Assembly (NCBI GenBank): GCA_945947575.1
Contig: CAMEYM010000001.1
Coordinates: 94,582-158,581 of the forward strand
DNA from: Rhizobium sp. Q54
GTDB taxonomy: Bacteria; Pseudomonadota; Alphaproteobacteria; UBA2966; CAIVPW01
Direction of reading: 5' to 3'
Length of the DNA: 64,000 nucleotides
Position 1 is the first letter of the stretch. Each line of letters starts with the position of its first letter. Below, in pieces: positions 2,839 to 44,927 of the stretch. The notes beneath the pieces were generated by a model. The model worked only from the letters and a program-made list of their open reading frames with translations, had not been told where the DNA came from and searched no databases. The translations under genes and the position numbers were made by a program.

Positions 2839-2926
2839 TGGTGCCCAGGAGAGGACTCGAACCTCCACGACCTCGCGGCCGCTAGTACCTGAAACTAGTG
2901 CGTCTGCCAATTCCGCCACCTGGGCA
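2839..2926 (-). tRNA. tRNA-Leu (anticodon CAG), type II with long variable arm
   Basis: 88-nt cloverleaf on the reverse strand: acceptor tgcccag/ctgggca plus CCA, anticodon stem ctagt/actag, loop ttCAGgt, T-arm GGTTCGAGTCC. Confidence 0.85.
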
Positions 2927-3071
2927 AAGGGGCTGTTTGCGAGGCTTCCCGGTACCCGTAGCAGGAGACGATGTCAACGATTGCGACGGGGAAGCTCAAG
3001 TCTCGCGACAGTACGCGCATGCGCTTGGCCGTTAGGAGCGGCTAGTATCCCGGCGCGCGGGGGGAGGGGAC

Positions 3072-4031: not shown

Positions 4032-4068
4032 GGTCTACGTGTCAGCGGTGTGTCGCGCCGCAGGCGCG

Positions 4069-4917
4069 CTACGCATAGACCGAGTAGAGCAGCGCCGCGC
4101 CGACCAGCAGGCGGTACAGGGCGAAGGGCGCGAGCGTGCCGCGCTTCAGCCACTGCATTAGGAAGGCGATCGCGGCCAGCGCGGCGACGAACGCAACGCC
4201 CGCGGCGATGGCGCCGTCGGTGCCCATCGCCCACCCTTGGGTGCGCGCCAGAGTCCACGAATGCCATGCCGCGAAGGCGAGGATCGGCACGACGCCGAGC
4301 AGCATGGCGAAGCGCGCCGCGTCCGTGCGCTCGAAGCCGAAGAGGCGCGCCGCCGTCATGGTGATGCCGATGCGTCCCGCCCCCGGCACCAGGGCGATGG
4401 CCTGGGCGAGACCGATCGCCAGCGCCGTGCCGCTACTCATGTGCTCGATGCGGCGCAGGGTCATGCCCATGCGGTCCGCCAGGAACAAGAGGGCGCCGAA
4501 TCCCACCATCGTCCAGCCGAGCATCAGCAGCGAGGTCTCGCCGTCCGGCTGCATGTCCAGCAGGATCAGCGCGACGCCGGCCGCGATCATCGGCACGGAG
4601 CCGATGAACAGTTTCACCGTCAGGCGCGCGCTGTCGCTCGAGCGGCCGATCGCCAGGTGATACGTGCCGATCACCGCCGACAGCAGCTCGCTATGGAAAT
4701 AGACCAGGACCGCCAGCACGGTGCCGAGATGCACCGGAATCATCAGGCGTTCCACGAGCGGGCCAAGAGGCAGGACGCGGCTTGCCAACGCCACATGGGC
4801 CTCGGAGCCGACGGGCAGGAATTCGGTGACGCTCTGGACGACAGCCAGAGCGACGATGTTCAAGAAATCCACGCGCCTGGCCCCACGCGGGAGAAGAGCA
4901 GGGAGAGTTTCGCCCAT
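4069..4917 (-). CDS. uppP: Undecaprenyl-diphosphate phosphatase (BacA/UppP)
   Basis: 282-aa polytopic membrane protein with the conserved VQSVTEFLPVGSEAH and PGAGRIGITMTAARLFG motifs. Confidence 0.9.
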   Translation of the reverse strand: MGETLPALLPRGARRVDFLNIVALAVVQSVTEFLPVGSEAHVALASRVLPLGPLVERLMIPVHLGTVLAVLVYFHSELLSAVIGTYHLAIGRSSDSARLTVKLFIGSVPMIAAGVALILLDMQPDGETSLLMLGWTMVGFGALLFLADRMGMTLRRIEHMSSGTALAIGLAQAIALVPGAGRIGITMTAARLFGFERTDAARFAMLLGVVPILAFAAWHSWTLARTQGWAMGTDGAIAAGVAFVAALAAIAFLMQWLKRGTLAPFALYRLLVGAALLYSVYA

Positions 4918-25466: not shown

Positions 25467-25556
25467 GGAGGGGTGGCCGAGCGGCTGAAGGCGCACGCTT
25501 GGAAAGCGTGTAACCGGGCAACCGGTTCGCGGGTTCGAATCCCGCCCCCTCCGCCA
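25467..25556 (+). tRNA. tRNA-Ser (anticodon GGA), type II
   Basis: 90-nt cloverleaf: acceptor ggagggg/cccctcc plus CCA, anticodon stem cacgc/gcgtg, loop ttGGAaa, long variable arm, T-arm GGTTCGAATCC. Confidence 0.9.
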
Positions 25557-27167: not shown

Positions 27168-27494
27168 TTACCACCGGGAAGATTTCGCGGCGCGCACCGC
27201 TCTTCGCCGCATCGTACACCCGATACACCTCTCAACTTGTTGGGCGGGAACGACTCGATGCGCGCGGCCTCGACCGCGCATATTGAGCGCCTGCTGAGGC
27301 TGCTCGCGTCGCTCTGATCGCTGAGCCGCGACGGGCGGGCACACGGCCGGCCGGCTACCCCAAAGGTCGATTGTACCACCGGCCAACGGCGGCAAACCAT
27401 GCCGAAGTGCGCGGAAACCCTCGGGTTTTGTTACCGCGTCACGGTCGTTGTGACCCATGGCGAACGGCCTTTGCCGGCTCACGCCGGCGCCCCG

Positions 27495-27764
27495 TCACGC
27501 CGGATGGCGGCGATAGAACTGCACGCGCGTCGAGCGCAGGCCCGAGATGCCGTGCTGGGTGAGGTCGCGTTGCCACGACAGGAATTCCTCGGCGCTGAGC
27601 GAATAGCGCGCGCAGGCCTCTTCCAGGGTCAGCACGCCGACTTTGACGGCGGCGACCACTTGCGCCTTGCGGCGCGCGATCCAGCGCTGCGTGCCCGGGG
27701 CGGGCAGCTCTGCGACGGGCGCGGACAGTTCTTCGGCGGTGGGTTCTCTGTCGAGGTTGTTCAT
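27495..27764 (-). CDS. DUF1153 domain protein (small HTH-like protein common next to flagellar genes in Alphaproteobacteria)
   Basis: 89 aa with the ...WIARRKAQVVAAVKVGVLTLEEACARYSLSAEEFLSWQRD motif. Confidence 0.7.
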   Translation of the reverse strand: MNNLDREPTAEELSAPVAELPAPGTQRWIARRKAQVVAAVKVGVLTLEEACARYSLSAEEFLSWQRDLTQHGISGLRSTRVQFYRRHPA

Positions 27765-27842
27765 GACTACTACACTTTCTCGGGCACTTTCGCTGCGCCG
27801 CGCCCCGCCGCGTTCGGCGGCGGGGGCGGCTAACGGTTACTA

Positions 27843-29534
27843 CTAGCGCTTCGTGCGCAGGAGCTCGTCGAGCATTTCGTCGGCGGTAGTGATGATCTTG
27901 GCGGCGGCGGAGAACGCGCGCTGGGCCATGATCATCTTGGAGAACTCGTTGGCCAGATCGACGGTCGAAGCTTCCAAGGACGACGGTGCGAACAATCCTG
28001 CGCCGTTGGTGCCGGGCACGCGCTTGGTCAGATCGCCGGAGATCGCGGTCTGGATGAACACGTTGCCGGAATGCGCGCCGAGGCCGTTGGCGTTCGGCAC
28101 CAGGCCGATCGGGATCTGGTACTTGTCCTGGGTGATGCCGTTCTCGAAGATCGCCGTCAGCACTCCGTTCTCGTCGATCGAGATGGCGGCCAATTGGCCG
28201 ACCTGGGCGCCGTCGACCGCGGTGCTGACCAGCGTCGATTCGCCGTCGTACTGCGTCATGCCGTCGGCTTCGCCGTCGGTGCCCCAGTCGAAGGTGATGG
28301 TCTGCGCGTCGATGCCGAGGGCGGTGGTGTCGAACGGCACGTCAACGGTGTAGTCCCCGGCGGTGTCAGTCAGGGTAGTACCGGCGCCGTCCGTAAGGAA
28401 CGTGTTGCTGAGGTCCCAGGTGCCGTTGGTGTTGAAGGCGATAACGCCGCGCATCACCTGGCCATCGACCACCGTGGAATCGGCGAGGGAGGACGGCTCG
28501 ACGAAGACTTCGACGTGCCACTGGTTGGCGGTCGCGGACTTGAGGAAGCCATAGGTCAACGTGCGCGGCGTGCCGAGCGAGTCATAGATTTCGACGGAAC
28601 GCGAGAAGTCCGGGACGACGTTGCCCGACGCCATGTTGATCGTCGTGTCGGCGCCGTTATACGTCGATGCAGTCACGTCGACCGTAGCGTCGATATCTGC
28701 CGTCGTGCCGTCACGCAGGGTCGGGCTGGTGATGGCGCGGCCCAAGCGGTCGGACACCGTCAGCACGTCGTTGTCGAACGAGACGGTGATGTTGGTGGCG
28801 CCGCCGTCGGCGGTCTGCAACTGGGTTTGGATGGTGCTCGCCAAGGTGGCGCCATCGGTCGCCGCAGCGACGGAGAACGTCACCACGGTCACCGCGCCGA
28901 TGTTGATGGAGAAGTCTTCGACGAAGCCGGCGCCGCCACCACCCGGGAAGGCGCTCGCCTCGACGACGTCGAACTCTGCCGTCGATGCGGCGGTTTCCGC
29001 CGCGGTTGAGACGTCCTCGGATGCCTGCAGGTTGGCCTGGAAGCCGACGTTCTCGGTGACGCGCAAGGTTGGCGGGAAGTTGGCAACGTTGACGGTCGAC
29101 AGCGTCGTTGCTGTCGCGCCTGCGTCGCTGATCTCGTAGGCGCGCAGATAGTAGCCGCCGGCATTCTTGAGGTAGCCGTCTACGTCCGGCGTGAACGAGC
29201 CCGCGCGCGTCAAGAACTCGCGCGCATCGGAGCCCGGGTCTGGCGTGTCGGTGACGACCATGAAGCCGGCGCCATTGATGGCAAGGTCGGTGGGTGACAC
29301 CGACGAAGTGAGAAGACCTTGCTTGTCGATGAGTTGCTGCGGCGTCGAGCGCACGCCGCCCGGGGCGTATGCCGTCGCCGTGGCGGAGCTGGTGACCAGC
29401 GAAGAGAAGCGCGCCGTCGTTTCCTTGAAGCCGACCGTATTCACGTTGGTGATGTTGTCCGACAGCATGCCCATTGCCTGGGCCTGGGCCGCCAGTCCGG
29501 ACACGCCGGAAAACAGGGCGCCATAGATGCTCAT
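27843..29534 (-). CDS. flgE: Flagellar hook protein FlgE
   Basis: 563 aa. N-terminal flagellar basal-body rod domain (MSIYGALFSGVSGLAAQAQAMGMLSDNITNVNTVGFK) and C-terminus ...NEFSKMIMAQRAFSAAAKIITTADEMLDELLR matching the FlgE terminal heptads. Confidence 0.85.
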   Translation of the reverse strand: MSIYGALFSGVSGLAAQAQAMGMLSDNITNVNTVGFKETTARFSSLVTSSATATAYAPGGVRSTPQQLIDKQGLLTSSVSPTDLAINGAGFMVVTDTPDPGSDAREFLTRAGSFTPDVDGYLKNAGGYYLRAYEISDAGATATTLSTVNVANFPPTLRVTENVGFQANLQASEDVSTAAETAASTAEFDVVEASAFPGGGGAGFVEDFSINIGAVTVVTFSVAAATDGATLASTIQTQLQTADGGATNITVSFDNDVLTVSDRLGRAITSPTLRDGTTADIDATVDVTASTYNGADTTINMASGNVVPDFSRSVEIYDSLGTPRTLTYGFLKSATANQWHVEVFVEPSSLADSTVVDGQVMRGVIAFNTNGTWDLSNTFLTDGAGTTLTDTAGDYTVDVPFDTTALGIDAQTITFDWGTDGEADGMTQYDGESTLVSTAVDGAQVGQLAAISIDENGVLTAIFENGITQDKYQIPIGLVPNANGLGAHSGNVFIQTAISGDLTKRVPGTNGAGLFAPSSLEASTVDLANEFSKMIMAQRAFSAAAKIITTADEMLDELLRTKR

Positions 29535-29656
29535 CGCTTGTCTCCTTCGAACCTTGCCCTCGGATCGTGCGGTCGTTATTCGCTCCGGTTCGCGGACACC
29601 CCGCCTGCTCTAGCGGGCCATCCGGCCGTGCCGCACATATCCCCGGGGCATCAGAA

Positions 29657-29671
29657 GCAAACGACGGGCCA
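29657..29671 (-). promoter_or_regulatory. Putative sigma-54 (-24/-12) promoter TGGCCC-N5-TTGC about 120 nt upstream of flgE
   Basis: Reverse complement of gcaaacgacgggcca. Matches the conserved GG-N10-GC spacing. Confidence 0.3.
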
Positions 29672-29796
29672 TTGAAATCGCGGGCCACGGACGGCGGATT
29701 TCCGCGGATTCCTCGGGCGCTAGGCGGGGAAATTCGGCGCGTCCGCCGGGGTAGAGTTGGCCGCGCCGGGAGGTTCTTGCCGACCCCGGCGGTGGG

Positions 29797-30897
29797 TTAG
29801 CGGCCGCGCTTGGAGCGGGCAGGCGCGTGGCGGAGACGCGTCCACGCCAGGGCCACGGCAACCCCCGCCAGCGCCCGCGCTGAGCGCAGCAGTGCATGGC
29901 CGACGACCATGCCGTGGGTTCGACCGCGGCCGGGCGGAAGGGCCAACCCGACGTCGCTCTCCGGTTTGTCGGACAGGATGGCTCCGGCCTTCGGCACGCC
30001 GCGCCCGGTCTGGCGGTCGAGCTCGGCGTTGAGCTCAGCGCCCAGCAGCACGGCGTACGCGGTCAGGTACAGCCACATCAGCAACGCGATGACGGCGCCG
30101 ACCGAGCCGTAAACCTCGTTGTAATGAGCGAAGCTCGCCACGTAGCGCGAGAAGGCGACCGACACCAGCAGGAACGATCCGGTTGCGACGACGCCGCCCG
30201 GCGTGATCCAGCGCCACGCCGGATTGGGCAGGTTGGGGGCAAACTTGAAGAGTGTCGCGGCGCCGGCCAACAGCACCGCGGCGATGAGCGGCCAACGCAG
30301 CCAGGCGAGGATCGACCGCGTGGTATCGCCTTGGCCAATCAGGCTGAACACTGCCGGCAGCGCAACGACCAGGAGCAGCGCGGCGACCAGGAAGACGATG
30401 GCGCCCGCGGTGAGCGCCAAGGCCAGGCCCAAGACCCGCAGAAATCCACGCGTTTCCGCGACTCCATAGACGATGTTGAGAGCGGTGATGATGGCCGTGA
30501 TCGCCTTGCTGGCGCTCCACAGGGCGAACGCCAATCCGAACACGGCGCCGACGCCGAGACTGGCGCCCGAGGCGGAGATGATCTTGACGAGTTGTTCCTC
30601 GATCAGCGCCCACGCTTCGGACGGCACCAGCGCGCTCAAGCGGTTGATCTGGGCGGCGAGGGTGCTCGGGTCGGCGGCCAAGCCATACAGTGACACCGCC
30701 GCCGCCAACGCCGGGAACAGCGCCAGCATTGCGTAGAACGCGATCCCCGCCGCTACCAGGCCGAGGTTGTCGCGTCCGATTTGATGGCGCAGGCGGTGGA
30801 AGACTTCGCGCAGGTCCTGGCCGGTGACGTAGCACTGGAGCAAGCGCCAGCGCCGCGTGTGCGCATGGGCACCGACACCGCTCGCGTGCTCTTGCAT
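29797..30897 (-). CDS. YihY/BrkB (virulence factor BrkB / ribonuclease BN-like) family membrane protein
   Basis: 366 aa, about 6 TM. Conserved NLGLVAAGIAFYAMLALFPAL and YGSVGAVIALLMWLYL regions. Confidence 0.85.
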   Translation of the reverse strand: MQEHASGVGAHAHTRRWRLLQCYVTGQDLREVFHRLRHQIGRDNLGLVAAGIAFYAMLALFPALAAAVSLYGLAADPSTLAAQINRLSALVPSEAWALIEEQLVKIISASGASLGVGAVFGLAFALWSASKAITAIITALNIVYGVAETRGFLRVLGLALALTAGAIVFLVAALLLVVALPAVFSLIGQGDTTRSILAWLRWPLIAAVLLAGAATLFKFAPNLPNPAWRWITPGGVVATGSFLLVSVAFSRYVASFAHYNEVYGSVGAVIALLMWLYLTAYAVLLGAELNAELDRQTGRGVPKAGAILSDKPESDVGLALPPGRGRTHGMVVGHALLRSARALAGVAVALAWTRLRHAPARSKRGR

Positions 30898-34616: not shown

Positions 34617-35588
34617 GTGTCCGACGTTCCGGCAGACCTGCCCATCTACGCCGACGTCGAGCGCGCCGCCGAGCGCCTGCATGGCGTTGCGCATCGTACG
34701 CCAGTGCTGACATCGCGCACCGCCAATGAGCGGACCGGGGCAACGTTGTTCTTCAAGTGCGAGAACCTGCAGCGCGCCGGCGCCTTCAAGTTCCGCGGCG
34801 CCTACAATGCCGTCGCCGCCCTCGACGACGAGCAGCGCGCGCGCGGGGTGCTGAGCTTTTCCTCGGGCAACCACGCTCAGGCACTCGCGCTTGCCTGCAT
34901 GTTGATGCGCACGCGTGTCGCCATCGTCATGCCCAAGGACGCCCCCGCTGCCAAGGTGGAGGCGACGCGCGGGTATGGCGGCGAGATCGTCTTCTATGAC
35001 CGCTACACCCAAGACCGCGAAACAATCGCCCGCGACCTAGCGGAACAGGATGGGATGGCCCTCATCCCGCCCTTCGACCACCGCGACGTGATCGCGGGCC
35101 AGGGCACCGCCGCGCGCGAGCTGCTGGAGGACGTCGGCACGCTCGACGTCCTGGTGACACCCCTCGGCGGCGGCGGATTGCTGTCGGGGACGACGCTGGC
35201 AGCGCGTCGTCTCGCGCCCTACTGCCGCCTGGTAGGCGTCGAGCCCGAGGCCGGGGACGACGCCCGCCAGTCGCTGCGCAAGGGTGAGATCGTCACCATT
35301 GCGCCACCGCGTTCCATCGCCGATGGCGCCATCACCACCCACCTCGGCACGTTGCCGTTCGCCATCCTGCGCGCCGCTGAGGTTGAGGTCGTTACCGCTT
35401 CGGACGCTCAGCTTGTTGCGGCGACGCGCTTCTTCGCCGAACGCATGAAGCTGGTGGTGGAGCCGACCGGGTGCCTTGGTTTGGCGGCGGTGCTGAACGG
35501 GGCCGTGGACGTGCGCGGCAAGCGCGTCGGCGTCATGCTCAGTGGCGGCAACGTCGACGTCGCCGCACTGGCGAAGTATCTGGGCTAA
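34617..35588 (+). CDS. PLP-dependent threonine/serine dehydratase family protein (GTG start)
   Basis: 323 aa with the PLP-lysine motif LFFKCENLQRAGAFKFRGAYNA and SFSSGNHAQALALA. Confidence 0.8.
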   Translation: MSDVPADLPIYADVERAAERLHGVAHRTPVLTSRTANERTGATLFFKCENLQRAGAFKFRGAYNAVAALDDEQRARGVLSFSSGNHAQALALACMLMRTRVAIVMPKDAPAAKVEATRGYGGEIVFYDRYTQDRETIARDLAEQDGMALIPPFDHRDVIAGQGTAARELLEDVGTLDVLVTPLGGGGLLSGTTLAARRLAPYCRLVGVEPEAGDDARQSLRKGEIVTIAPPRSIADGAITTHLGTLPFAILRAAEVEVVTASDAQLVAATRFFAERMKLVVEPTGCLGLAAVLNGAVDVRGKRVGVMLSGGNVDVAALAKYLG

Positions 35589-37459
35589 TTTGCCGCTGTC
35601 TCGGCCTGCTCCAGGGCCAGGCTCGCATCCATCCAGCGCTCCTCGGCGGCGGCCACCTGGCGTGACAACGCGCCGTGACTCTTCATGAGCTCGCCGCGCT
35701 TCGGTCCTTGCGCCTTGGGGTCGTTGAGGGCGCTCTCTATCTCCATCCGCTGCCGCGTCAGCTTGGCCAGCTCCGCCTCCGCTGCCTTCACCGCTTGGCG
35801 CAGCGTCTTGGTGCGCTCGCGCAGGTCGGCAGCGGCGCGCCGCTCGTCTTTGCGCGTACCGCGCGGCGCGGCTTTGGCGGCATCCTCTTCCTCATCGTCC
35901 GGTTGCGACAGGATCAGCGTCCGGTAGTCGGCGAGGCTGCCGGCGTACTCCTTCACCGTGCCGTCCGCGACCAGCATCAGCCGGTCGGCGACTAGCTGCA
36001 GCAGATGGCGGTCGTGGCTCACTACCAGCACGGCTCCCGCGTACTCGTTGAGCGCCGCCACCAGCGCGTCGCGTGCCTCGACGTCCAAGTGGTTGGTCGG
36101 CTCGTCCAGGATGATCATGTGCGGCGCGTCGCGCGTGATCAGCGCCAGGGCGAGTCGCGCCCGCTCGCCGCCGGACAGGTGCCGCACGGCAACGTCCGCC
36201 TTCTCTCCCGAGAATCCGAAGCGCCCCAAGTGCGCGCGCACCACCACAGGCAGCGCGCCAGGCAACGCCCGCGCCATGTGTTGCACGGGTGTGTCCGCGT
36301 GCACCAGCTCGTCCACCTGGTATTGGGAGAAGTAGCCGACCTTGAGCTTGGTGCTGCCGTTGGCCGCCCCGGCCATCGCCGGGAGTTCACCGCACAGCAG
36401 CCGCGCCAGCGTGGTCTTGCCGTTGCCGTTGCGGCCCAGCAGCGCAATGCGATCGTCGGGGTCGATGCGCAGGTTGATACGCGTCAGCACTGGCGTGCCG
36501 TCATAACCGACCGCGGCGTTCTCGACGGTCAGCAGTGGCGGCCGCAGCGCATCGGGGCTCGGGAAGGCGAACTCGACTTCTTGTTCCTCGACCGCTGAGG
36601 CGATCGGCTGCAATCGGGCAAGGGCCTTGAGGCGGCTCTGCGCCTGCGCCGCGCTGTGCGCCTTGTAGCGCCAGCGGTCGACGAACGCCTGCAGCCGCTT
36701 GCGCTTGTCGTCCTGGCGCGCGCGCTGCGCCTCGCTCTCCGCGGCGCGTTCGCTGCGCTGGCGCGCGAACTCGTCGTAGGCGCCCGCGTACAGGGTCAGC
36801 TTGCCGCCCTCCAGGTGCAGGATGTGATCGACGACGTTGTTCAGCAGGTCACGCTCGTGGCTGACGAGAACGAGCGTGCCGCGATACTTGGCAAGGTACG
36901 CCTCGAGCCACAGCGTCGCCTCGAGGTCGAGGTGATTCGATGGCTCGTCTAGTAGCAGCAGGTCCGGCTCGGCGAACAGCACCGACGCCAGCGCCACGCG
37001 CGTGCGCCAGCCGCCCGACAGCGAATCGAGCGGTCGCTGCTGCATCGCCGCGTCGAATCCCACGCCGGCGAGCACGCGCGCCGCGCGCGCCGGGGCGGCA
37101 AAGGCACCGATGGTGGCGAGGCGCTCGTGCAGCTCGCCAATGTCCTCGCCGTCACGCGCGGCCTCGACTGCAGCCAGCAGCCGCGTGCGCTCGGTATCGG
37201 CCGCGAGAACGGTTTCGAAGGGGGTCGCGCTGCCGGACGGCGCGTCCTGGGCGACGTAGCCCAGACGTGACTGGCGCGGCACCTCGATGGCGCCGGCGTC
37301 CGCCTGCAGCGTCCCGGCAATCACCTTGAGCAGCGTCGACTTGCCTGAGCCGTTGCGACCGACCAAGCCGATGCGCGCCCGCGCCGGTACGGCCGCAGTG
37401 GCATGGTCGAGCACCAGGTGCCCGCCCAGGCGCACGGTCACGTCCCGCATCGTCAGCAT
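35585..37459 (-). CDS. ABC-F family ATPase (tandem NBDs, C-terminal coiled coil; Uup/YheS-like)
   Basis: 625 aa from MLTMRDV, with two Walker A (GRNGSGKST, GRNGNGKTT), two LSGG signatures and a KR-rich linker. The annotated ORF start at 38146 is a frame extension. Confidence 0.9.
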   Translation of the reverse strand: MLTMRDVTVRLGGHLVLDHATAAVPARARIGLVGRNGSGKSTLLKVIAGTLQADAGAIEVPRQSRLGYVAQDAPSGSATPFETVLAADTERTRLLAAVEAARDGEDIGELHERLATIGAFAAPARAARVLAGVGFDAAMQQRPLDSLSGGWRTRVALASVLFAEPDLLLLDEPSNHLDLEATLWLEAYLAKYRGTLVLVSHERDLLNNVVDHILHLEGGKLTLYAGAYDEFARQRSERAAESEAQRARQDDKRKRLQAFVDRWRYKAHSAAQAQSRLKALARLQPIASAVEEQEVEFAFPSPDALRPPLLTVENAAVGYDGTPVLTRINLRIDPDDRIALLGRNGNGKTTLARLLCGELPAMAGAANGSTKLKVGYFSQYQVDELVHADTPVQHMARALPGALPVVVRAHLGRFGFSGEKADVAVRHLSGGERARLALALITRDAPHMIILDEPTNHLDVEARDALVAALNEYAGAVLVVSHDRHLLQLVADRLMLVADGTVKEYAGSLADYRTLILSQPDDEEEDAAKAAPRGTRKDERRAAADLRERTKTLRQAVKAAEAELAKLTRQRMEIESALNDPKAQGPKRGELMKSHGALSRQVAAAEERWMDASLALEQAETAAN

Positions 37460-37534
37460 GGATTTCCCCTCATGAGCGGCCGCATCATGGGCAAGGGTCG
37501 GTGGGCATTCAACGGCCCAGGGAGAGCGAGCCGG

Positions 37535-38038
37535 ATGGATCGGGAAACGTTGCGGGCGCTGCAGGCGCCCCTCAAGCAGAAGTATCGCGACGCGCCGGAG
37601 AGCGGGCGCGTCGAGGCACAGGCCGTCGCACACCTCGACGCCGCGGGTTCCTGTACCGTTCCGACGTGGGCAGGAGATGCCAAGGCAGGGCTGCATCCCG
37701 CCACCGGCGGTGATGGCAGCATGGCGTGCGCTGCCGACATGATGATGGAGGCTTTGGCCGCATGCGCCGGGGTCACCCTCACCAGCGTCGCCGCCGCTAT
37801 GGGCGTGACCCTGCGCAAGGCATCCGTGCGCGCCGAGGGGACGTGGGATGCGCGCGGCACGCTCGGCGTCGCACGCGAGGTGCCGGTCGGCCTGACCTCG
37901 GTTCGGCTGTTGTTCGACCTCGATACCGATGCCGACGAGGCGAAGCGGCAACGCCTGGTCGAGCTGACGGAACGCTATTGCGTGGTGCTGCAGACCTTCA
38001 AGCAGCCGCCCCAAACAACCGCGGCGCTGGCCTCCTAG
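37535..38038 (+). CDS. OsmC family peroxiredoxin-like protein
   Basis: 167 aa from MDRETLRALQ. Conserved Cys pair (ACAADMMMEALAACAG). Confidence 0.8.
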   Translation: MDRETLRALQAPLKQKYRDAPESGRVEAQAVAHLDAAGSCTVPTWAGDAKAGLHPATGGDGSMACAADMMMEALAACAGVTLTSVAAAMGVTLRKASVRAEGTWDARGTLGVAREVPVGLTSVRLLFDLDTDADEAKRQRLVELTERYCVVLQTFKQPPQTTAALAS

Positions 38039-38081: not shown

Positions 38082-39452
38082 TTACTGCTGCTCGCGCAGG
38101 GAACGGCGGAAGACGCCGGAAATCGGCTCGAGCAGGTAGTCGGCAAGGGTGTGCGCCGCCGTCACCACGATCACTTCCGCCGGCATGCCCGGATTGATCT
38201 TGGTCTCGGCCAGCACGGCAGACGGCAGCAGCTCGACGCGCGCGAGGTAGTAGGCGGCGCCCGAGCGTTCGTCGACCAGGCGGTCGGCGGATACGTTGAT
38301 GACGCGCCCCATGAGCGGGAGTGCGTGGCGCTGGTTGAACGCGGTCAGCCGCACCTGGGCCTCCAGGCCCGCCTGCACGATGTCTGCGTCATGCGGCTCG
38401 ACCCGCGCCTCGACGATGAGGCGGTCCTCGGTCGGCACCAGGTCGAGGATCGGATTGCCGGGGCCAATGACTCCGCCCGGCGAATGGAAGCGCAGGTTGA
38501 CGACCGTTCCCGCCGTATGGGCGCGCACCACGGACCGCTGGCTGATGTCCTCCGCAGCGCGCAGGCGCTCGCCCAGATCGAACAGGGTCGCCTGTACGTC
38601 GCCGAGCTGCGCGACGGCATCGTTGACGAACGTCGTCTTCAGCTCGCCTATCTGCAGCTGCGCCTCGGCGATGCTCTGGTTGGCGCGGGCGATCGACGCC
38701 CTCGCCTGGCTGCGGCGTCCTTCGAGGGAAGCCTGCTCGCGTTGCAGCTCCAACAGTCGCGCGCGCGGCGACAGGCCTTTTGCCTGCAGCGACTCCTCGG
38801 TCTGGATCTGCTCTCTCAGCAGCGCGATCTGGCGATCTTGGGCGGCGATTTCGCCTTCAACGCCGACGATCTCCGCCTTCAGCTGTTGGACGCGCTGGTT
38901 GAGGATGGCGGACTGTCCCCTCAGGGACTGGTCCATGTTGGTGAAGATGTCGGTCTGCGCGCGGATCAGCTCGCCCACGTCCGGCTCGCCGCGGCGTGCC
39001 AGCAACTCCGCGGGGAACAGGATCGTGCCCTTCGCATCCCGCTGCGCTTCGAGGCGCGCCTGCATGGCGATGCCGACGTCCCGGCGCTTGCGCACCAGAT
39101 CGAGCGAGGCGCCTGCCTGGGTGTCGTCCAGACGCATCAGCACTTGCCCCGCTTCGACCTTGTCGCCGTCGCGCACCAGGATCTCGCGGATGATGCCGCC
39201 CTCGAGGTGCTGCACGGTCTTGCGTGTCGACTCGACGCCGACCACGCCTTGGGCGATGACGGCGCTTTGCAGCGGGGCCAACGCGGCCCACCCGCCGAAG
39301 CCGAAGAAGAAGACGGCGATGGCAGCAAGGCCCGCGAACTTGGCCCCACCGACGCTCGGCCGCGCGGGCGTCGGCGTCACGGCTGGCCGCTGCGCGACGT
39401 TGATCGACGATGGCAGGTGAACGTCCGGGTTCATCAAGGTCATGTCAGGCAT
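38082..39452 (-). CDS. HlyD-family type I secretion periplasmic adaptor (membrane fusion protein)
   Basis: 456 aa. N-terminal TM anchor, long coiled coil and C-terminal beta domain, collinear with PrtE/HlyD. Confidence 0.85.
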   Translation of the reverse strand: MPDMTLMNPDVHLPSSINVAQRPAVTPTPARPSVGGAKFAGLAAIAVFFFGFGGWAALAPLQSAVIAQGVVGVESTRKTVQHLEGGIIREILVRDGDKVEAGQVLMRLDDTQAGASLDLVRKRRDVGIAMQARLEAQRDAKGTILFPAELLARRGEPDVGELIRAQTDIFTNMDQSLRGQSAILNQRVQQLKAEIVGVEGEIAAQDRQIALLREQIQTEESLQAKGLSPRARLLELQREQASLEGRRSQARASIARANQSIAEAQLQIGELKTTFVNDAVAQLGDVQATLFDLGERLRAAEDISQRSVVRAHTAGTVVNLRFHSPGGVIGPGNPILDLVPTEDRLIVEARVEPHDADIVQAGLEAQVRLTAFNQRHALPLMGRVINVSADRLVDERSGAAYYLARVELLPSAVLAETKINPGMPAEVIVVTAAHTLADYLLEPISGVFRRSLREQQ

Positions 39453-40317
39453 TCCCCGCCTTGGCTAAGAGGTCTGGGCGCACGGTCTCGGAGCCGATCG
39501 CGGCGGCGCGCGGCAGGATCTCGTCGCGCGGGCCTATGACGCGGATCTGTCCGTCCTTCAGCACCAGAATGCGATCGACGTGGCGCAGGATGTTCGGACG
39601 GTGTGCGATGACAATCGACGTGATCTTGCGCTCGCGCAGGCGCTCGATGACGCCGAGCAGCGCGTCCTCGCCCGCGGCGTCGAGGCTGGCATTGGGCTCG
39701 TCGAGCACGACCAGGCGCGGATCGCCGTAGAGCGCGCGGGCTAACGCGATGCGCTGGCGCTCGCCGCCGGACAGGTTGATACCGCCGCCGGCGATCTCCG
39801 TCTCGTAGCCGTTGGGCAGGCGCAGGATTAGCTCGTGCACGCCGGCCAGCTGCGCCGCGGCAATTACCGCGGAGGGGTCGCCCGGGCCCATGCGCGCGAT
39901 GTTCTCGCGCACCGTGCCGGAGAACAGCTCGACGTCTTGCGGCAGGTAGCCGACGTACTGGCCGCGATCGTCCGGATTCCACATCGCTACGTCGGCGTCG
40001 TCGAGACGCACGTGGCCGACGTTGGCGCGTAGGTTGCCGATGATGAGGCGCGCCAGTGTCGTTTTGCCGGAGCCGGACGGCCCGATCAGGCCCAGCGCCG
40101 TGCCGGGCTCGAGCTCGAAGGTGATGCCGCGTAGCAGCGGCTCGCCGGAGCCCGGGTGGGCGTACAGCACGCCCTCGGCCGAAAGGGTCCCGCGCGGGCG
40201 CGGCAGCGGCACCATCTCGGTGCGTGGCGGCGCCGCCTGCAGCTGCTCACCGAGACGCTTATATGCGCTCCACGCGTGCGCAACCGTGCGCGCGCCAGGT
40301 ATGGCTCTCGCCACCAC
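39445..40317 (-). pseudogene. Type I secretion ABC transporter, C-terminal ATPase half only (transmembrane domain missing)
   Basis: The 290-aa frame begins inside the TMD/NBD linker (AHAWSAYKRLGEQLQAAPPRTEMVPLPRPRG) and carries Walker A GPSGSGKT, LSGGERQR and Walker B. An in-frame stop lies 21 nt upstream, and the upstream DNA is fully occupied by a GT2 gene. Confidence 0.6.
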
Positions 40318-41206
40318 CCCTGCGGCGCACCGCCTGCACTACGCGCAGCCCCGCATAGCGGCTCAGCGGCCAACCCAGCAGCAACGTCGCCCCGGCGGCC
40401 GAACCCAGCCGTGACCAGTGGCGCTGCATGTAGGTGCGGCGACCCTTCAAGAGGCGCACCAGACGATCGGCGCGCACTGGCTGCGTCGCGCCGACGAAGT
40501 GAACGATCTGCACGTCCGCCGACACCACCGGCCGCGCGCCCAGCCGGTACGCGCGCAGGCAAAGGTCGACTTCCTCCGAATACATGAAGTAGATCGGATC
40601 GAACCCGCCCAGGGTGTCCCACAGCTGCTTTCGGATCATCAGCAGGCAGCCGCTCACCACCTCGACGTCGCGCACGCCGTCCAGCGGCTCGCCGCCGTAG
40701 ATCTCGCGGTTGAACACGCGGCTGTTGGCGAACACCCGCGACAGCCCGGAGACGAAGCAGAAAGTGCTCCACAGGGTGGGGAAGCGCCAGCACGAGCCCG
40801 GGATCACCGCTCCCTCCATCGTCACCGTGCGGCCGCCCCAGATGCCGGCATTGGGCCGCGCGTCGGCAAGCTCGACCAGCTTGTCGATGGCGCCGGGCCG
40901 CACCAGGGTGTCTGGGTTGAGCAGCAGGATGAACTCGCCGTTCGCCCCAGCCGCGCCGGCGTTGCATCCGCGCCCGAAGCCGATGTTGGTGTCGAGGCCG
41001 ATGACCTGGACGGCGGGGAACGCCGCGCGGACCGAATCGACCGTGCCATCGGTGGAGGCATTGTCCACGACGATGACCTCGAACGAGGTGCGCGGCGCGG
41101 TGGCGTACAGCGAGGCAAGGGAGTCCAGCACCAGCTGGCGGCAGTGATAGCTGACGATGATGACGGATACGCGCACCGTCGCCGCTTTCGGATGGATGGT
41201 CGTCAT
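40259..41206 (-). CDS. Glycosyltransferase family 2
   Basis: 315 aa from MTTIHPKAATVRVSVIIVSYH. DNASTDGT and a DxD-type catalytic region. Confidence 0.8.
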   Translation of the reverse strand: MTTIHPKAATVRVSVIIVSYHCRQLVLDSLASLYATAPRTSFEVIVVDNASTDGTVDSVRAAFPAVQVIGLDTNIGFGRGCNAGAAGANGEFILLLNPDTLVRPGAIDKLVELADARPNAGIWGGRTVTMEGAVIPGSCWRFPTLWSTFCFVSGLSRVFANSRVFNREIYGGEPLDGVRDVEVVSGCLLMIRKQLWDTLGGFDPIYFMYSEEVDLCLRAYRLGARPVVSADVQIVHFVGATQPVRADRLVRLLKGRRTYMQRHWSRLGSAAGATLLLGWPLSRYAGLRVVQAVRRRGGGESHTWRAHGCARVERI

Positions 41207-42150
41207 AGGGCGGCCGGCCGGTTCCAGGAATGCACGCCGGCGGTCATCGAAGGCTTCGCGGCGACGCGCAGCATGACGCCGGCGCGGTACAGCCGGATGG
41301 CGAACAGAACGCCGAAGGCGCGCACGCGCGGGCCGATGCCCCACACGCGCGGCGACGTGACGATGCGGCGCACGTCGAGTACGGACGACGCTGCCACGGC
41401 AACGGCGCGGGCTACCCACGCAAAGATGCTGCGGCCGTCGCCGCGCCACTCCTCGAAATCGTGCAGGATGTGGCGATCCCACTTGAGTTTGAGCTCGGCA
41501 AGGGTATGCCGCGCCGGAGTGAACGCCACCATCTCCGGCACGTAGGTAATGCGGTAGCCGTTGGCGCGCGCCTGGCGGCCCCACATGCGGTCCTCGGCCA
41601 GTCCGATGCCCGGGAAGCCGCCGATCTTCTTGAAGTCGGCGCGGCGCACGGCGAGGTTGCCGGTGCCGGTGAAGCCGTGGCGCTCGATGTATTCCTTTTG
41701 CCGGTAGGCGAAGACGCTCTCGTACGCTTCCAGCATGGTGAGGTGGTCCGGATTGCGATAGGCGATACGCACGTCGCCGCCGAGCACGCGCGCCGCGTCC
41801 TGGCGCGCCAGGCGCCTGCCAATGGTCAACAGCCAGCTGCGCTCGGCGATCTCGTCGGCGTCGATGAAAGCCAGCACCTCGCCCAGCGCCACCGCGGCGC
41901 CGCGGTTGCGGGCCGGCCCTGGTCCGGGCGTCGCCTCGTGCTCGAGACGCACGCCGCCGAACTCCGCGATGATCGGCGCCGGCGACTGGCTCGAGCCGTT
42001 ATCGACGACAATCACCTCATAGGAGTCGCGCGGGTAGGCCTGCCCCGCCAGCGATGCCAGGCAGTGGCGCAGCGTCTCCGGCTGGTTGAGGTGGGCGATG
42101 ATGACGCTGATGAATGGCAGCGTCACGGCGTTGAGCTCACGTGGTTGCAT
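41203..42150 (-). CDS. Glycosyltransferase family 2
   Basis: 315 aa. ISVIIAHLNQPETL...VIVVDNGS and FIDADE (DxD). Confidence 0.8.
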   Translation of the reverse strand: MQPRELNAVTLPFISVIIAHLNQPETLRHCLASLAGQAYPRDSYEVIVVDNGSSQSPAPIIAEFGGVRLEHEATPGPGPARNRGAAVALGEVLAFIDADEIAERSWLLTIGRRLARQDAARVLGGDVRIAYRNPDHLTMLEAYESVFAYRQKEYIERHGFTGTGNLAVRRADFKKIGGFPGIGLAEDRMWGRQARANGYRITYVPEMVAFTPARHTLAELKLKWDRHILHDFEEWRGDGRSIFAWVARAVAVAASSVLDVRRIVTSPRVWGIGPRVRAFGVLFAIRLYRAGVMLRVAAKPSMTAGVHSWNRPAAL

Positions 42151-43381
42151 GTTCGGTCTTGCTCACAACAGAGGTAGCAGCAGAAGGAAGCACCGAGTCG
42201 TACGCGGCGAGCAGCTGACGCGCCGCTGCTTCCCAGCGGAACTCGGCCTTGGCGCGTGCGGCGCCGTTCGCCGCCATGGCGGCGCGGCGCAACGGGTCGT
42301 CGATCAGCGAGAGCAGGGTGTCACCCATCGAGGCGCCGGTAGCCTCAGGCGCGATATCGCAGGCGCCGCCCGCCTCGCGGCGGCCCTCGGTAACGTTGAA
42401 CTGCACGAACGGGATGCCCAGGCTCATGTACTCGAACACTTTGTTCATCGAGATCTTGTCGTTGTAGACGTTGGGCGGGTCGGGGATCGCGCCGACGTCG
42501 ATGGTCGACAGGTACTTGAGCAGCGTCGGGCCGGTCAGGAATCCGGTGAACTCGATGTAGTCGGCGACATTCTTTTCCTGCGCGCGCGCCTTCAGCGCCT
42601 CGAGCTCGGGTCCGTTGCCGATGATGGCGCAGCCGACGTCGCGGCGGCCTTGGGTGTGGACGATGTGCGCCATCGCATCGACGAGCAGATCGACGCCGTC
42701 CTGGTTGCCCATGATGCCGACGTAGCCCACCAGATGCTGGCGTCCGCGCTTCAGCGCGGGGTCCGCCTCGACGCGATAGAAGCGATTCAGGTCGGGGTAG
42801 CTCTTCACGACCCATACGCGCTCGGCCCACATGCCGCCGCGCGCCACCGCGATGCGGCGGAACGAGTCGTTGGTAGCGATCGACGCGTCGGCGGTGCGGA
42901 ACGTCAGGCGCTCCAGCCACAGGAGCACCTTGTGCACGAAGCCGCGCTTGCCGAACTTCGCCTCATACAGCTCCGGCGAGATGTCGTGGTGATCGAACAC
43001 GAAGCGCTTGCCGAGCAGGAACTTGTAGAAGCCGCCGATCAGGAAGATCAGGTCGGGCGGGTTACACGCGTGCACCACGTCGAAGCCGTGCTTGTAGAGA
43101 ACCTTGAGCGAGAGCACGAACTCCCAGAACAGCGCCGTGCCGTACTCGAGGGCGAAGCCGGCCAGCCCCGACGCCTGGATCGGCAGCGGGTGGCGGTAGA
43201 CGTGAATGCCTTCGATGCACGCATACGACTTTGTGTAGTTGGCGTTCTTCGGGCAGATGACGCTGACGGTCCACCCCGCTTGGCGAAGCGTACGGGCCTC
43301 CTGCCAGACGCGCCGGTCGAACGGCACGGGAAGATTCTCGACGATGATGAGGACGCGGTGCGGAGAGTTGCGATTGGTCAT
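42137..43381 (-). CDS. Glycosyltransferase family 4 (exopolysaccharide-type)
   Basis: 414 aa. N-terminal RVLIIVENLPVPFDRRVWQEARTL and C-terminal EX7E-like motif. Confidence 0.8.
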   Translation of the reverse strand: MTNRNSPHRVLIIVENLPVPFDRRVWQEARTLRQAGWTVSVICPKNANYTKSYACIEGIHVYRHPLPIQASGLAGFALEYGTALFWEFVLSLKVLYKHGFDVVHACNPPDLIFLIGGFYKFLLGKRFVFDHHDISPELYEAKFGKRGFVHKVLLWLERLTFRTADASIATNDSFRRIAVARGGMWAERVWVVKSYPDLNRFYRVEADPALKRGRQHLVGYVGIMGNQDGVDLLVDAMAHIVHTQGRRDVGCAIIGNGPELEALKARAQEKNVADYIEFTGFLTGPTLLKYLSTIDVGAIPDPPNVYNDKISMNKVFEYMSLGIPFVQFNVTEGRREAGGACDIAPEATGASMGDTLLSLIDDPLRRAAMAANGAARAKAEFRWEAAARQLLAAYDSVLPSAATSVVSKTEHATT

Positions 43382-43942
43382 GCGTTGCTCATGGCGTGCC
43401 GCGGCGTGCGCGGTCCTGTCCGGGAGGGAGGCTTGGGGAGGTCACGAGTAGAACGACGGCCGTCATGCGGGACGTATACCGTCCCTGCTTTCTTGTTTGT
43501 TGGGAGACGCCATCCTAGGGAACCGTCTGCTGTGCCGTAGCGCGCAGATGGCCCACAGCGGCACCCAAGTGGGGTACTTCGTTGGCGGCCGCTCTCATGC
43601 GCGCAATGTCACGGGCATGTCACAGCTGCGCCGACGCCATCACGGGCCAAGATTGCGTCAACACGATGTGCACTGATGCTTACGCCGCGCTGACGGGTAG
43701 CCCGTCACAAAAAAGCCGCCCTGACTCAACAGAGTCGCGGTGCGGTGAAGGCCAGGTCAGACGCGCCGCCGTGGAAGTTGGGCCGCCACCCACTGTCGAA
43801 ATCCGGCGGCCCGTCAGTGGCGCACCCTGGTTACCACCCGCATCTTGGCTATCGTCATAGGGTGATACCCCGATGGGCGCGTCTATTGCGCGCTCGTACG
43901 TTTCAAGGGCTGCGCATGGTTCAAAAGGAAGAGTCTTTGAAG

Positions 43943-44713
43943 ATGTCTGGTGCTCGCAACGGTGGCCGGAAAAGCGTGGTCACTTCACAGGAGTCGTCGG
44001 AAAACACACCGCGCTCCAGCCGCAGAGAAAAACCGATCCCCAAGTCGTTGACGATCTTGGTGGTCGATGACCATGCGCTCGTGCGTGAGGCCTTCCGCAT
44101 GTTGCTGGAAGACCTCGACGTGTGCCGCGAGGTCATCACAGCTTCAAGCGGCGCCGAGGCACTGGCAGTGCTCGACAAGCGGCCGATCGATCTGACCCTG
44201 CTTGACCTCAAGCTGCGCGGCGAAAGCGGCCTTGAGACTCTTGCCAAGATCAAGCAGCGCACCATCGAGATGCCCGTGATTGTGTTGTCGGCTTCTGAGT
44301 CCGCTGCCGACGTAAGAGAGGCGCTCACCGCCGGAGCGGACGGCTACGTCGTCAAGTCTTCCTCGGCCGAGGTGCTGATCCACTCGATCAACCTGGTCAT
44401 GACCGGCCAGCGCGTGGCACCGCTGCCGCTCGACATCATGAACGAGCCGTCCTCGCAGCCGAGTCCGGCAGCTTCGGCCTTGCGCCACCACCCCAAGCTG
44501 ACGGCGCAAGAATCGCGCGTCCTCAGCTACTTGGGCGAGGGCATGTCCAACAAAGAGATCGCCCGTACGCTTGGCATCTTCGAGGGCACCGTGAAGGTCC
44601 ACGTCAAGTCGGTGTTCCGCAAGCTCGGCGCCAAGAACCGCACCATGGCGGCCCTCATGGCGACCCAGGAGATCCGCAACCAGACTCCGAGCCAGGAACA
44701 GTCGTCCTCCTGA
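43943..44713 (+). CDS. Two-component response regulator, NarL/FixJ (LuxR-HTH) family
   Basis: REC domain (ILVVDDHALVRE ... D-L-L-D-L-K-L) plus C-terminal LuxR HTH (LTAQESRVLSYLGEGMSNKEIARTLGIFEGTVKVHVKSVFRKLG). Confidence 0.8.
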   Translation: MSGARNGGRKSVVTSQESSENTPRSSRREKPIPKSLTILVVDDHALVREAFRMLLEDLDVCREVITASSGAEALAVLDKRPIDLTLLDLKLRGESGLETLAKIKQRTIEMPVIVLSASESAADVREALTAGADGYVVKSSSAEVLIHSINLVMTGQRVAPLPLDIMNEPSSQPSPAASALRHHPKLTAQESRVLSYLGEGMSNKEIARTLGIFEGTVKVHVKSVFRKLGAKNRTMAALMATQEIRNQTPSQEQSSS

Positions 44714-44927
44714 CGCGCGGCGCGGGAGCGCGCCTCTTGCCCGCTCCCGCCGCACGTCCATTTGTCAGGTCTTCGCCATCCCGGGCTCCGGTGATGGCCC
44801 GATGGCGCCCGTCGCGCCACTGGGAGAGTTTGCTTCGTCGGCTCTGCGTGCCGCAACGCACGCGGTCGGCCGTCGCTTTTTTTGTGTTCCGGCGCTTGTC
44901 GGAACGCCCACCAGAAGGACACACAAG

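What the first reader, a model, noticed from the sequence alone, without database searches (positions are those of the whole stretch)
38082..43381. Intact HlyD adaptor next to a type I secretion ABC gene truncated to its ATPase half, abutting a three-glycosyltransferase EPS cluster
The ABC reading frame (39445-40317) starts in the TMD/NBD linker, with an in-frame stop just upstream. The DNA where the six-TM domain should lie is occupied by an intact GT2 gene whose 3' end overlaps it. The arrangement otherwise resembles Rhizobium prsD-prsE lying next to pss exopolysaccharide genes, where the T1SS secretes EPS-modifying glycanases. Either the transporter was disabled by a rearrangement, or an NBD-only protein still functions with another permease.
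Basis: partly seen in the sequence, partly recalled or inferred. Interest (0 to 1): 0.5.

Follow-up and report, generated by a model that had tools for sequence, protein, structure and literature searches.

The report
Deletion scar in a secretion operon
The half-length transporter gene is a real scar of a recent large deletion that removed a surface-sugar gene cluster, the secreted proteins and the membrane half of their exporter; sister strains in the same natural population carry the missing pieces or have other deletions at the same spot, so this is an ordinary broken gene in a variable region.

Summary
On the minus strand lie GT4, GT2, GT2, a 290-aa ATPase-only PrtD-type ORF with an in-frame stop upstream, and an intact HlyD adaptor.

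It is a deletion scar, not an NBD-only functional unit.
- Contigs 99.99% identical on the left flank carry the last GT2 with its native tail, followed by a full Wzx/Wzy/rml polysaccharide cluster.
- A ~99% identical sister strain carries a full-length 578-aa ABC gene, an identical HlyD and a divergent cadherin/beta-helix cargo gene.
- The window equals the left part of the first joined to the right part of the second, at window 40291-40293. The join overlaps by 3 nt (GCG) inside a shared GGCGCG.
- The "intact" GT2 lost 13 native codons and gained 10 out-of-frame ABC codons.
- At least 14 contigs from 7 or more separate assemblies share this junction, so it is not an artefact.
- Three further deletion alleles with other endpoints co-occur in the population. 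Two of them also truncate HlyD.
- The NBD and HlyD DNA are essentially identical to the intact allele, so their intactness reflects recency, not function.
- Two NBD-only look-alikes in distant relatives are also wrecks next to transposases.

Verdict: an ordinary pseudogene remnant in a hypervariable glycan/T1SS island. Interest is modest.

The parts
38082..39452 (-). HlyD-family T1SS periplasmic adaptor gene. It is full length (456 aa from the first ATG; gene callers use the ATG at 39443, giving 453 aa). It is now an orphan.
   Evidence: TIGR01843 scores 359.6 bits against a cut-off of 208.65; Pfam HlyD_3. The DNA is identical over 1371 nt to L004, which has the intact ABC gene.
39445..40293 (-). 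Remnant of a PrtD-family T1SS ABC gene. It holds the linker plus the nucleotide-binding domain only, equivalent to about residues 297-578 of the 578-aa gene.
   Evidence: It matches TIGR01842 positions 276-541/544 at 356.5 bits, below the 510.15 cut-off. L004 9151-9999 aligns to window 40293-39445 with 1 nt difference. Homology to L001 starts at the same point.
39445..40317 (-). Its first 8 codons are GT2-derived DNA in another frame. Gene callers instead start at ATG 40215 (256 aa).
   Evidence: An in-frame stop lies upstream at 40339-40341.
40291..40293 (.). Deletion junction (allele B). A 3-nt GCG overlap lies between the GT2b-side parent and the ABC-side parent. Both parents carry GGCGCG here; the window carries GG(CG)3.
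   Evidence: L020 matches the window down to 40291. L004 and L001 match from 40293.
40259..41206 (-). GT2 glycosyltransferase 'GT2b', 315 aa, with a chimeric C-terminus. The native last 13 codons are lost. Ten out-of-frame ABC codons plus a stop are gained.
   Evidence: P0241 (315 aa) and P0243 (318 aa) are identical up to ...ESHTWR and then diverge. Pfam Glycos_transf_2.
41203..42150 (-). GT2 glycosyltransferase 'GT2a', 315 aa.
   Evidence: Pfam Glycos_transf_2 E = 3.8e-21. Present in alleles B and C.
42137..43381 (-). GT4-type (GT1-fold) glycosyltransferase, 414 aa. It contains the left endpoints of deletion alleles D (42478) and E (43145) found in sister contigs.
   Evidence: Pfam Glyco_trans_1_4 and Glyco_trans_4_4. 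L033/L034 and L035/L036 junctions.
43916..44713 (+). NarL/LuxR-type response regulator, transcribed divergently from the GT genes. This is the left conserved flank. The left endpoint of deletion allele A (44057) falls exactly at the start of its REC domain.
   Evidence: Pfam Response_reg 47-158 plus GerE. L004 homology ends at 44057.
35585..38038 (.). Conserved right flank: OsmC (37535-38038, +) and an ABC-F protein (35585-37459, -). The order HlyD, OsmC, ABC-F is syntenic in all alleles and in relatives whose HlyD is 67% and 85% identical.

Best explanation
The 290-aa ABC ORF is a dead remnant. In an ancestor of this strain the locus most likely read as follows.
- A response regulator.
- GT4, GT2a and GT2b.
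- A Wzx/Wzy-dependent, rhamnose-type polysaccharide cluster: M48 peptidase, Wzy, a Sec-secreted beta-helix/PKD protein, a 259-aa protein with a weak, sub-threshold glycosyltransferase hit, Wzx, rmlA/D/B/C, and an AAA_31/GNVR chain-length pair.
- One or more signal-peptide-less cadherin/beta-helix/PKD cargo genes.
- prtD-type ABC, hlyD, osmC.

A single illegitimate recombination deleted everything from 13 codons before the GT2b stop to about codon 296 of the ABC gene. The breakpoints share a 3-nt overlap inside a GGCGCG motif. At least about 15 kb was lost. The deletion removed the polysaccharide export and polymerisation genes, the cargo, and the transporter's six-helix membrane domain in one step.

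What remains is a soluble ATPase fragment that cannot form a T1SS channel, and an orphan HlyD. Both look intact only because the event is very recent.

What is shown: both parental sequences, the junction, its presence in many assemblies, and the existence of other deletion alleles. What is inferred: that the polysaccharide cluster and the cargo/ABC genes were physically contiguous in one ancestor, that it was one event, and that the remnant has no function.
For: 1. Left parent. L020-L025 are 99.99-100% identical to the window from 51206 down to 40291. They then continue with the native GT2b tail, M48, Wzy, beta-helix/PKD, Wzx, rmlADBC, AAA_31 and GNVR.

2. Right parent. L004 aligns from window 40293 rightwards. 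It encodes a 578-aa ABC protein (TIGR01842, 677 bits, full profile) and a HlyD identical in DNA.

3. More distant relatives have a full-length ABC gene with the same downstream synteny. These are the lineage with 67% identical HlyD (L012-L018) and, as far as its contig reaches, the one with 85% identity (L001).

4. The junction shows 3-nt microhomology and no filler DNA.

5. The same junction occurs in 7 listed contigs plus 7 similar places not shown, from at least 7 ENA/Logan assemblies.

6. None of the deleted genes, and no TMD half, occurs elsewhere in the 64-kb window.

7. Alleles D (window 42478 joined to 39275) and E (43145 joined to 38704) delete the NBD remnant and truncate HlyD. So neither gene is being retained.

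8. The NBD differs from the intact allele by 1 nt in 846, and that change is on the L004 branch. HlyD differs by 0 nt in 1371.

9. Cargo candidates lie next to the ABC gene in three lineages. They lack a signal peptide and share a conserved extreme C-terminal motif.
Against: - No single contig bridges the polysaccharide cluster (allele C) to the cargo/ABC genes in this lineage. All allele-C contigs stop about 190 nt beyond a 5'-truncated GNVR gene, at a transposase-like fragment. So contiguity, the size of the deletion and the single-event claim are inferred.
- The remnant keeps possible start codons (GTG 40317, ATG 40215) and overlaps the hlyD start. It may therefore still be transcribed and translated with the GT operon. 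Non-function is inferred, not shown.
- The rest of the genome could not be searched for another T1SS.
Confidence: 0.86

Rival explanations
1. The NBD-only protein is a working unit. It is expressed with HlyD and supplies ATPase activity to a separately encoded permease (a split T1SS ABC transporter).
For: - The ORF has intact Walker A, signature and Walker B motifs (GPSGSGKT, LSGGERQR, VVLDEP).
- It overlaps the hlyD start, as in coupled operons.
- Many 250-330-aa PrtD-like hits exist in databases.
Against: - There is no TMD gene adjacent or anywhere in the window.
- The ORF begins exactly at a deletion junction whose undeleted counterpart exists at about 99% identity.
- Its intactness is explained by recency: 1 nt difference in 846.
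- Sister alleles delete it and truncate HlyD.
- The two NBD-only look-alikes examined on long contigs lie beside DDE transposases, and one has a fragmentary HlyD.
- Most other short hits are fragments on contigs of 1-3 kb.
Confidence: 0.04
2. A foreign glycosyltransferase cassette was inserted or swapped in by horizontal transfer. It replaced the cargo gene and the 5' half of the ABC gene. On this reading there was never a large contiguous cluster that was deleted.
For: - G+C drops to 0.61-0.65 across 42000-44750, against about 0.69 around it.
- Bridging contigs between the polysaccharide cluster and the ABC gene were not found.
- Replacement islands for surface glycans are well known (PMC4898812, PMC11898729).
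Against: - The GT2b gene is itself cut at the junction. It loses a tail that is conserved in the other members (P0242, P0244) of its 90%-identity protein cluster. A cassette insertion would more likely bring a whole gene.
- The low-G+C stretch also covers the response regulator, which is shared by all alleles.
- One ancestral order explains alleles A, B, D and E as single deletions with consistent gene orientations.
- Relatives whose HlyD is 67% identical, and L026, also have EPS/exosortase genes beside the T1SS.
Confidence: 0.08
3. Assembly chimera: the GT2/ABC join was created by a metagenome assembler.
For: The window appears to come from a metagenome-type assembly, and co-occurring alleles could confuse an assembly graph.
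Against: The identical junction occurs in at least 14 contigs (7 listed, 7 similar not shown). They come from at least 7 samples and two assembly pipelines (MEGAHIT-style k141 contigs in ENA, and Logan). The listed contigs run 0.3-10 kb to the left and up to about 12 kb to the right of the join.
Confidence: 0.01

Closest known systems
PrtD/HasD/EexD-type type I secretion systems (ABC TIGR01842 plus HlyD-family adaptor TIGR01843)
   Same: The remnant's NBD and the adjacent adaptor belong to these families. The undeleted sister allele has the canonical fused TMD-NBD gene of 578 aa, followed by the adaptor with overlapping stop and start codons.
   Different: In the window the TMD (profile positions 1-275) is gone, so the defining permease half is absent. 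The cargo candidates in sister alleles have no RTX nonapeptide repeats.
Rhizobium leguminosarum PrsDE T1SS in the Pss-I exopolysaccharide region, which secretes PlyA/PlyB glycanases and Rap cadherin-like (CHDL) proteins
   Same: In both cases a T1SS is embedded in or next to polysaccharide biosynthesis genes. The neighbouring cargo candidates combine cadherin-like repeats with a right-handed beta-helix, which is a glycanase/lyase-type fold (PMC3233446, PMC9298526, PMC5061743).
   Different: Orthology was not tested. The cargo architecture is different (ConA-like, 2x cadherin-like, beta-helix, PKD, and a conserved DANGSLxFLHHxDxWGV end). In this window the system is destroyed rather than functional. 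Relatives pair it with an XrtD-type exosortase.
Flexible (replacement or deletion-prone) genomic islands for surface glycans in natural bacterial populations, such as the O-chain or 'glycotype' islands of Alteromonas and Pelagibacterales
   Same: Several alleles of a surface-polysaccharide locus lie between conserved flanks in near-identical (99-99.99%) co-occurring genomes. In one case two alleles occur in the same sample (PMC4898812, PMC11898729).
   Different: Here the variants seen are nested or overlapping deletions with 2-4-nt microhomology junctions that cut through genes. They are not swaps of whole alternative cassettes.
T1SS ABC pseudogenes created by IS insertion
   Same: L037 and L038/L039 show PrtD-like NBD-only ORFs upstream of an hlyD gene or hlyD fragment in other bacteria.
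   Different: Those cases abut DDE transposases. The window's junction has no IS sequence and is a plain microhomology deletion.

Membership tests
PrtD-family T1SS permease/ATPase (TIGR01842) | N-terminal six-helix ABC exporter membrane domain (PF00664) | tested here: not met
   There is no PF00664 hit. The TIGR01842 match covers only profile positions 276-541/544 and scores 356.5 bits, below the 510.15 cut-off. No TMD half is found elsewhere in the window by tblastn.
PrtD-family T1SS permease/ATPase (TIGR01842) | C-terminal ABC ATPase domain with Walker A, signature and Walker B motifs | tested here: met
   PF00005 E = 5.7e-30. GPSGSGKT, LSGGERQR and VVLDEP are visible in the translation.
PrtD-family T1SS permease/ATPase (TIGR01842) | Descent from a full-length family member | tested here: met
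   L004 has a 578-aa ORF scoring 677.3 bits over profile positions 1-541. Its DNA is identical to the window over the shared 846 nt except for 1 nt.
HlyD-family T1SS adaptor (TIGR01843) | Full-length match above the curated cut-off | tested here: met
   359.6 bits against 208.65, with residues 41-455 matching profile positions 7-422/422.
Complete, functional T1SS | ABC permease, adaptor, outer-membrane factor and cognate cargo all present | tested here: not met
   The permease half and the cargo genes are absent from the window. The outer-membrane factor was not searched for. The rest of the genome is not available.
Split ABC transporter (separate NBD and TMD genes) | A TMD-only gene adjacent to, or co-occurring with, the NBD gene, with the arrangement conserved in relatives | tested here: not met
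   The upstream DNA is GT2b. Relatives have fused genes. Two NBD-only look-alikes are IS-associated truncations.
PrsDE/Pss-like association of a T1SS with polysaccharide genes | T1SS genes adjacent to EPS biosynthesis genes, and polysaccharide-active or cadherin-like cargo | tested here: inconclusive
   Adjacency and domain content are seen in sister alleles and relatives. Secretion, enzymatic activity and orthology to prsDE/plyA/rap were not tested.
Flexible surface-glycan genomic island | Multiple structural alleles at one locus between conserved flanks within one population | tested here: met
   Five configurations (A-E) share the response-regulator flank. Four of them (A, B, D, E) also show the OsmC/ABC-F flank; allele-C contigs end before reaching it. 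Flank identity is 99-100%. L025 (allele C) and L035 (allele E) come from the same sample, ERZ27280196.

The most novel reading that the evidence does not exclude
The locus may be a natural hotspot of recurrent, independent, microhomology-mediated deletions. At least four events (alleles A, B, D, E) repeatedly strip a rhamnose-type surface polysaccharide, its T1SS and its cargo from co-existing, nearly clonal cells. This would be driven by selection, for example by phage or grazers that use the glycan or cargo as a receptor. The lost cargo may also define an undescribed non-RTX T1SS substrate family. It has no signal peptide, a ConA-like/cadherin-like/beta-helix/PKD architecture, and a conserved C-terminal DANGSLxFLHHxDxWGV tail. 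In relatives it is linked to XrtD-type exosortase EPS loci.
Probability: 0.3. Interest if true: 0.5.

Novelty: new member of a known kind. Interest (0 to 1): 0.3.

Why it matters
For annotation, the 256-290-aa "ABC transporter ATP-binding protein" and the neighbouring HlyD in this genome should be treated as remnants of a destroyed T1SS. The last GT2 is a C-terminally altered gene. The three glycosyltransferases are the stump of a larger Wzx/Wzy cluster. None of these should be read as a working exporter or a working EPS pathway.

For biology, the value lies in the population picture. One 64-kb window plus public metagenome contigs show five structural states of a single glycan/secretion locus in near-identical genomes, with base-pair-resolved junctions. 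That is a clean, though not unprecedented, example of how surface-structure islands are eroded in nature. It also flags a candidate non-RTX cargo family for T1SS work.

Tried and rejected
- **Alternative start or frameshift giving a full-length ABC gene.** Rejected. The DNA upstream of 40293 is GT2b sequence, 100% identical to contigs in which GT2b continues normally.
- **TMD half displaced elsewhere in the window.** tblastn with the 578-aa L004 protein found only NBD-level hits to ABC-F-type genes.
- **JGI metagenome scan with HlyD.** No relatives found. The GTDB genome scan gave one relative only, L001, whose contig ends inside the TMD.
- **Bridging the polysaccharide cluster to the cargo/ABC genes.**
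  - Walking from rmlC reached only a transposase-like fragment at the contig ends.
  - A homolog search with the L026 exosortase fragment found nothing closer than 68% identity.
  - A look-up of a 30-aa 'RmlB' cluster member landed on an unrelated phage-like contig.
- **Test for relaxed selection on the remnant.** Uninformative, because there are essentially no substitutions.
- **Copies of the IS fragment in the window.** None found.
- **Rfam scan of the window.** Only two tRNAs, with no rRNA to name the organism. The only taxon label available is the submitter's 'Rhizobium sp. Q54' on the relative whose HlyD is 85% identical. That label sits oddly with the roughly 69% G+C seen across 34-48 kb.

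Full report
**1. What is in the window**

The region has about 69% G+C. On the minus strand, in the direction of transcription, the ORFs are as follows.
- A GT4-type glycosyltransferase at 42137-43381.
- A GT2 at 41203-42150 ("GT2a").
- A GT2 at 40259-41206 ("GT2b").
- A 290-aa ORF at 39445-40317, which carries only an ABC ATPase domain.
- A full-length HlyD-family adaptor at 38082-39452.

The ATPase ORF matches only positions 276-541 of the 544-position PrtD-family model TIGR01842. It scores 356.5 bits, below the 510 cut-off. The adaptor passes TIGR01843 (359.6 bits against 208.65). An in-frame stop lies just upstream of the ATPase ORF.

**2. Where homology breaks**

A GTDB relative, L001, has a HlyD that is 85% identical. 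It aligns with the window from the right flank up to window 40293. Beyond that point it continues into typical PrtD TM5/TM6 sequence, whereas the window continues with GT2b.

**3. Both parents of the junction exist in public assemblies**

Looking up the window's HlyD protein (P0121) gave 17 contigs. Most repeat the window's arrangement exactly. These are L002, L003 and L005-L009, plus 7 similar places not shown. They are 99.9-100% identical to the window, apart from one divergent contig end in L006.

One contig, L004, belongs to a strain about 1% divergent in the flanks. In place of the three GTs and the half gene it has:
- a full 578-aa ABC gene (TIGR01842, 677 bits, full profile);
- upstream of it and divergently transcribed, a cadherin-like/beta-helix gene.

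L004 matches the window again from 40293 rightwards.

The protein-cluster listing for GT2b then showed 318-aa versions. These are identical to the window's 315-aa protein up to ...ESHTWR, but end in EVWRRRNEWLPGY instead of AHGCARVERI. Their contigs (L020-L025) are 99.99-100% identical to the window from 51206 down to 40291. They then continue with the following genes:
- an M48 peptidase;
- a Wzy-like polymerase;
- a signal-peptide-bearing beta-helix/PKD protein;
- a 259-aa protein with only a weak, sub-threshold glycosyltransferase hit;
- a Wzx flippase;
- rmlA, rmlD, rmlB and rmlC;
- an AAA_31/GNVR chain-length pair.

The window therefore equals the left part of L020 joined to the right part of L004. 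At the join, L020 reads ...CCTGGCGCG|AGG and L004 reads ...CTCGGCGCG|CACGG. The window reads ...CCTGGCGCGCGCACGG. This is a 3-nt overlap inside a shared GGCGCG, with no filler DNA. It is the signature of illegitimate, microhomology-mediated recombination.

GT2b lost 13 native codons and reads 10 codons of ABC DNA out of frame. The first 8 codons of the 290-aa ORF are GT2b DNA out of frame.

**4. Direction of the event**

The window's state must be the derived one, for two reasons.
- The GT2b tail is conserved in the other members of its 90%-identity protein cluster (P0242, P0244).
- The full-length ABC gene is conserved in L004, L026 (N-terminus) and L012-L018. L001, as far as its contig reaches, continues into the TM5/TM6 region.

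Insertions that exactly restored both ORFs are not credible.

One ancestral order explains every allele as a single deletion: RR, GT4-GT2a-GT2b, polysaccharide cluster, cargo gene(s) on the opposite strand, prtD-hlyD, osmC. The window's deletion would span at least about 15 kb. That figure is 12.1 kb of L027 plus 2.9 kb of L004, plus the missing 3' end of the cargo gene.

The weak point is that no contig bridges the GNVR gene to the cargo genes in this lineage. All allele-C contigs end about 190 nt beyond a 5'-truncated GNVR gene, in a fragment that looks like the start of a transposase integrase-core domain (rve, E = 0.005). A repeat of that kind would explain the assembly breaks.

**5. More deletion alleles at the same locus**

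- **Allele A (L004).** It joins the first codons of the response regulator's REC domain (window 44057) to the middle of the cargo gene. The 648-aa product runs out of frame into response-regulator DNA. A full 846-aa version, P0246, exists in L026.
- **Allele D (L033, L034).** It joins GT4 at 42478 to hlyD at 39275, with a 2-nt overlap.
- **Allele E (L035 plus 3 similar places, and L036).** It joins GT4 at 43145 to hlyD at 38704, with a 4-nt overlap.

A and B are necessarily independent of each other. D and E each need at least one further event. Allele C (L025) and allele E (L035) come from the same sample. D and E remove the NBD remnant and truncate HlyD, which argues that neither gene is under selection once the system is broken.

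**6. Why the remnant looks healthy**

Over the shared 846 nt of NBD, the window and L004 differ at one base. That change is on the L004 branch when polarised with L001. Over the 1371 nt of hlyD they are identical. Intactness therefore reflects recency and says nothing about function.

**7. Is "NBD-only" a conserved unit elsewhere?**

Many short PrtD-like hits exist, but most sit on contigs of 1-3 kb. Two on long contigs were inspected.
- P0009 (L037) lies directly downstream of a DDE transposase and has an intact hlyD.
- P0077 (L038/L039) lies among transposases and has a 193-aa hlyD fragment.

Both are wrecks, not split transporters.

**8. What the lost system probably did**

The cargo candidates are P0246 (846 aa), P0265 (663 aa), and the 972-aa and 140-aa proteins of L012. 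They share these features:
- no N-terminal signal peptide;
- no RTX repeats;
- a ConA-like / cadherin-like / right-handed beta-helix / PKD build;
- a conserved extreme C-terminus, DANGSLxFLHHxDxWGV.

They sit next to prtD-hlyD in three lineages. This fits C-terminal-signal T1SS cargo acting on, or binding to, polysaccharide. In function it is comparable to Rhizobium PrsDE with its PlyA/B glycanases and cadherin-like Rap proteins beside pss genes (PMC3233446, PMC9298526, PMC5061743). This part is inference from domain content and gene order only. In relatives the neighbouring genes include an XrtD-type exosortase.

**9. Verdict**

The finding is real and the "disabled by rearrangement" reading is right. 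The event is a recent microhomology deletion within a hypervariable surface-glycan/T1SS island. This type of locus is known to vary within populations (PMC4898812, PMC11898729).

It is an ordinary pseudogene scar. The five-allele series with mapped junctions is a tidy population-genomic example but not a new kind of system.

Noticed in passing
L026 526-5242; L012 489-3875; L004 6149-8095 (not in the window: deleted): Candidate T1SS cargo proteins (846, 663, 972 and 140 aa). They have no signal peptide and no RTX repeats. They share a conserved N-terminal motif (M..LFGADF..) and a conserved extreme C-terminus, DANGSLxFLHHxDxWGV, after a PKD domain. This may be an undescribed non-RTX cargo family.
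   Followed up: partly
L027/L028 1-200 (beyond the GNVR gene of allele C): All allele-C contigs end at a fragment resembling the start of a transposase integrase-core domain (..NHVWSYDFVEDVIHNGRKYRMLNIIDE; rve, E = 0.005). It abuts a GNVR gene that appears to lack its 5' end. So even the 'undeleted' allele carries a rearrangement scar. No copy of this fragment occurs in the window.
   Followed up: partly
window 27333-30667 versus L004: The L004 strain lacks this 3.3-kb stretch. It removes most of a BrkB-family gene and the flagellar hook gene flgE. This is a second deletion affecting a surface structure in the same strain.
   Followed up: no
window 39726 and 39768 (ends of L010 and L011): Two contigs stop inside the NBD remnant, about 530-570 nt to the right of the junction and not at any mapped breakpoint. 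This could hide yet another allele. Unexplained.
   Followed up: no
window 35919-36999 versus L006: L006 is identical to the window except for 146 mismatches packed into the last ~1.1 kb of the contig, inside the ABC-F gene. This is either a recombination tract or a chimeric contig end.
   Followed up: no
window 42000-44750: G+C falls to 0.61-0.65, against about 0.69 on either side. The stretch covers GT4, the divergent promoter region and the response regulator.
   Followed up: no
window 43916-44056: The response regulator has a 46-aa low-complexity N-terminal extension before its REC domain. The allele-A junction (44057) falls exactly at the REC start, leaving L004 with a GTG-initiated 223-aa version.
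   Followed up: partly
L037 4511-6759; L038/L039 3458-8159: PrtD-like NBD-only ORFs in distant relatives lie directly beside DDE transposases. This suggests that truncation of T1SS ABC genes to their ATPase half happens repeatedly and by different mechanisms.
   Followed up: partly
L013/L014/L016 (about 1260-4400) and L026 5505-6566: In relatives an XrtD-type (VPLPA-CTERM) exosortase EpsH/EpsI gene lies a few genes from the T1SS cargo and ABC genes. L013, L014 and L016 also carry a beta-barrel outer-membrane protein gene there, and L014 a Bac_transf priming transferase gene. The association of an exosortase with a T1SS was not pursued.
   Followed up: no
window 2842-2925 (-) and 25467-25553 (+): Two tRNA genes were the only Rfam matches in the window.
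   Followed up: no
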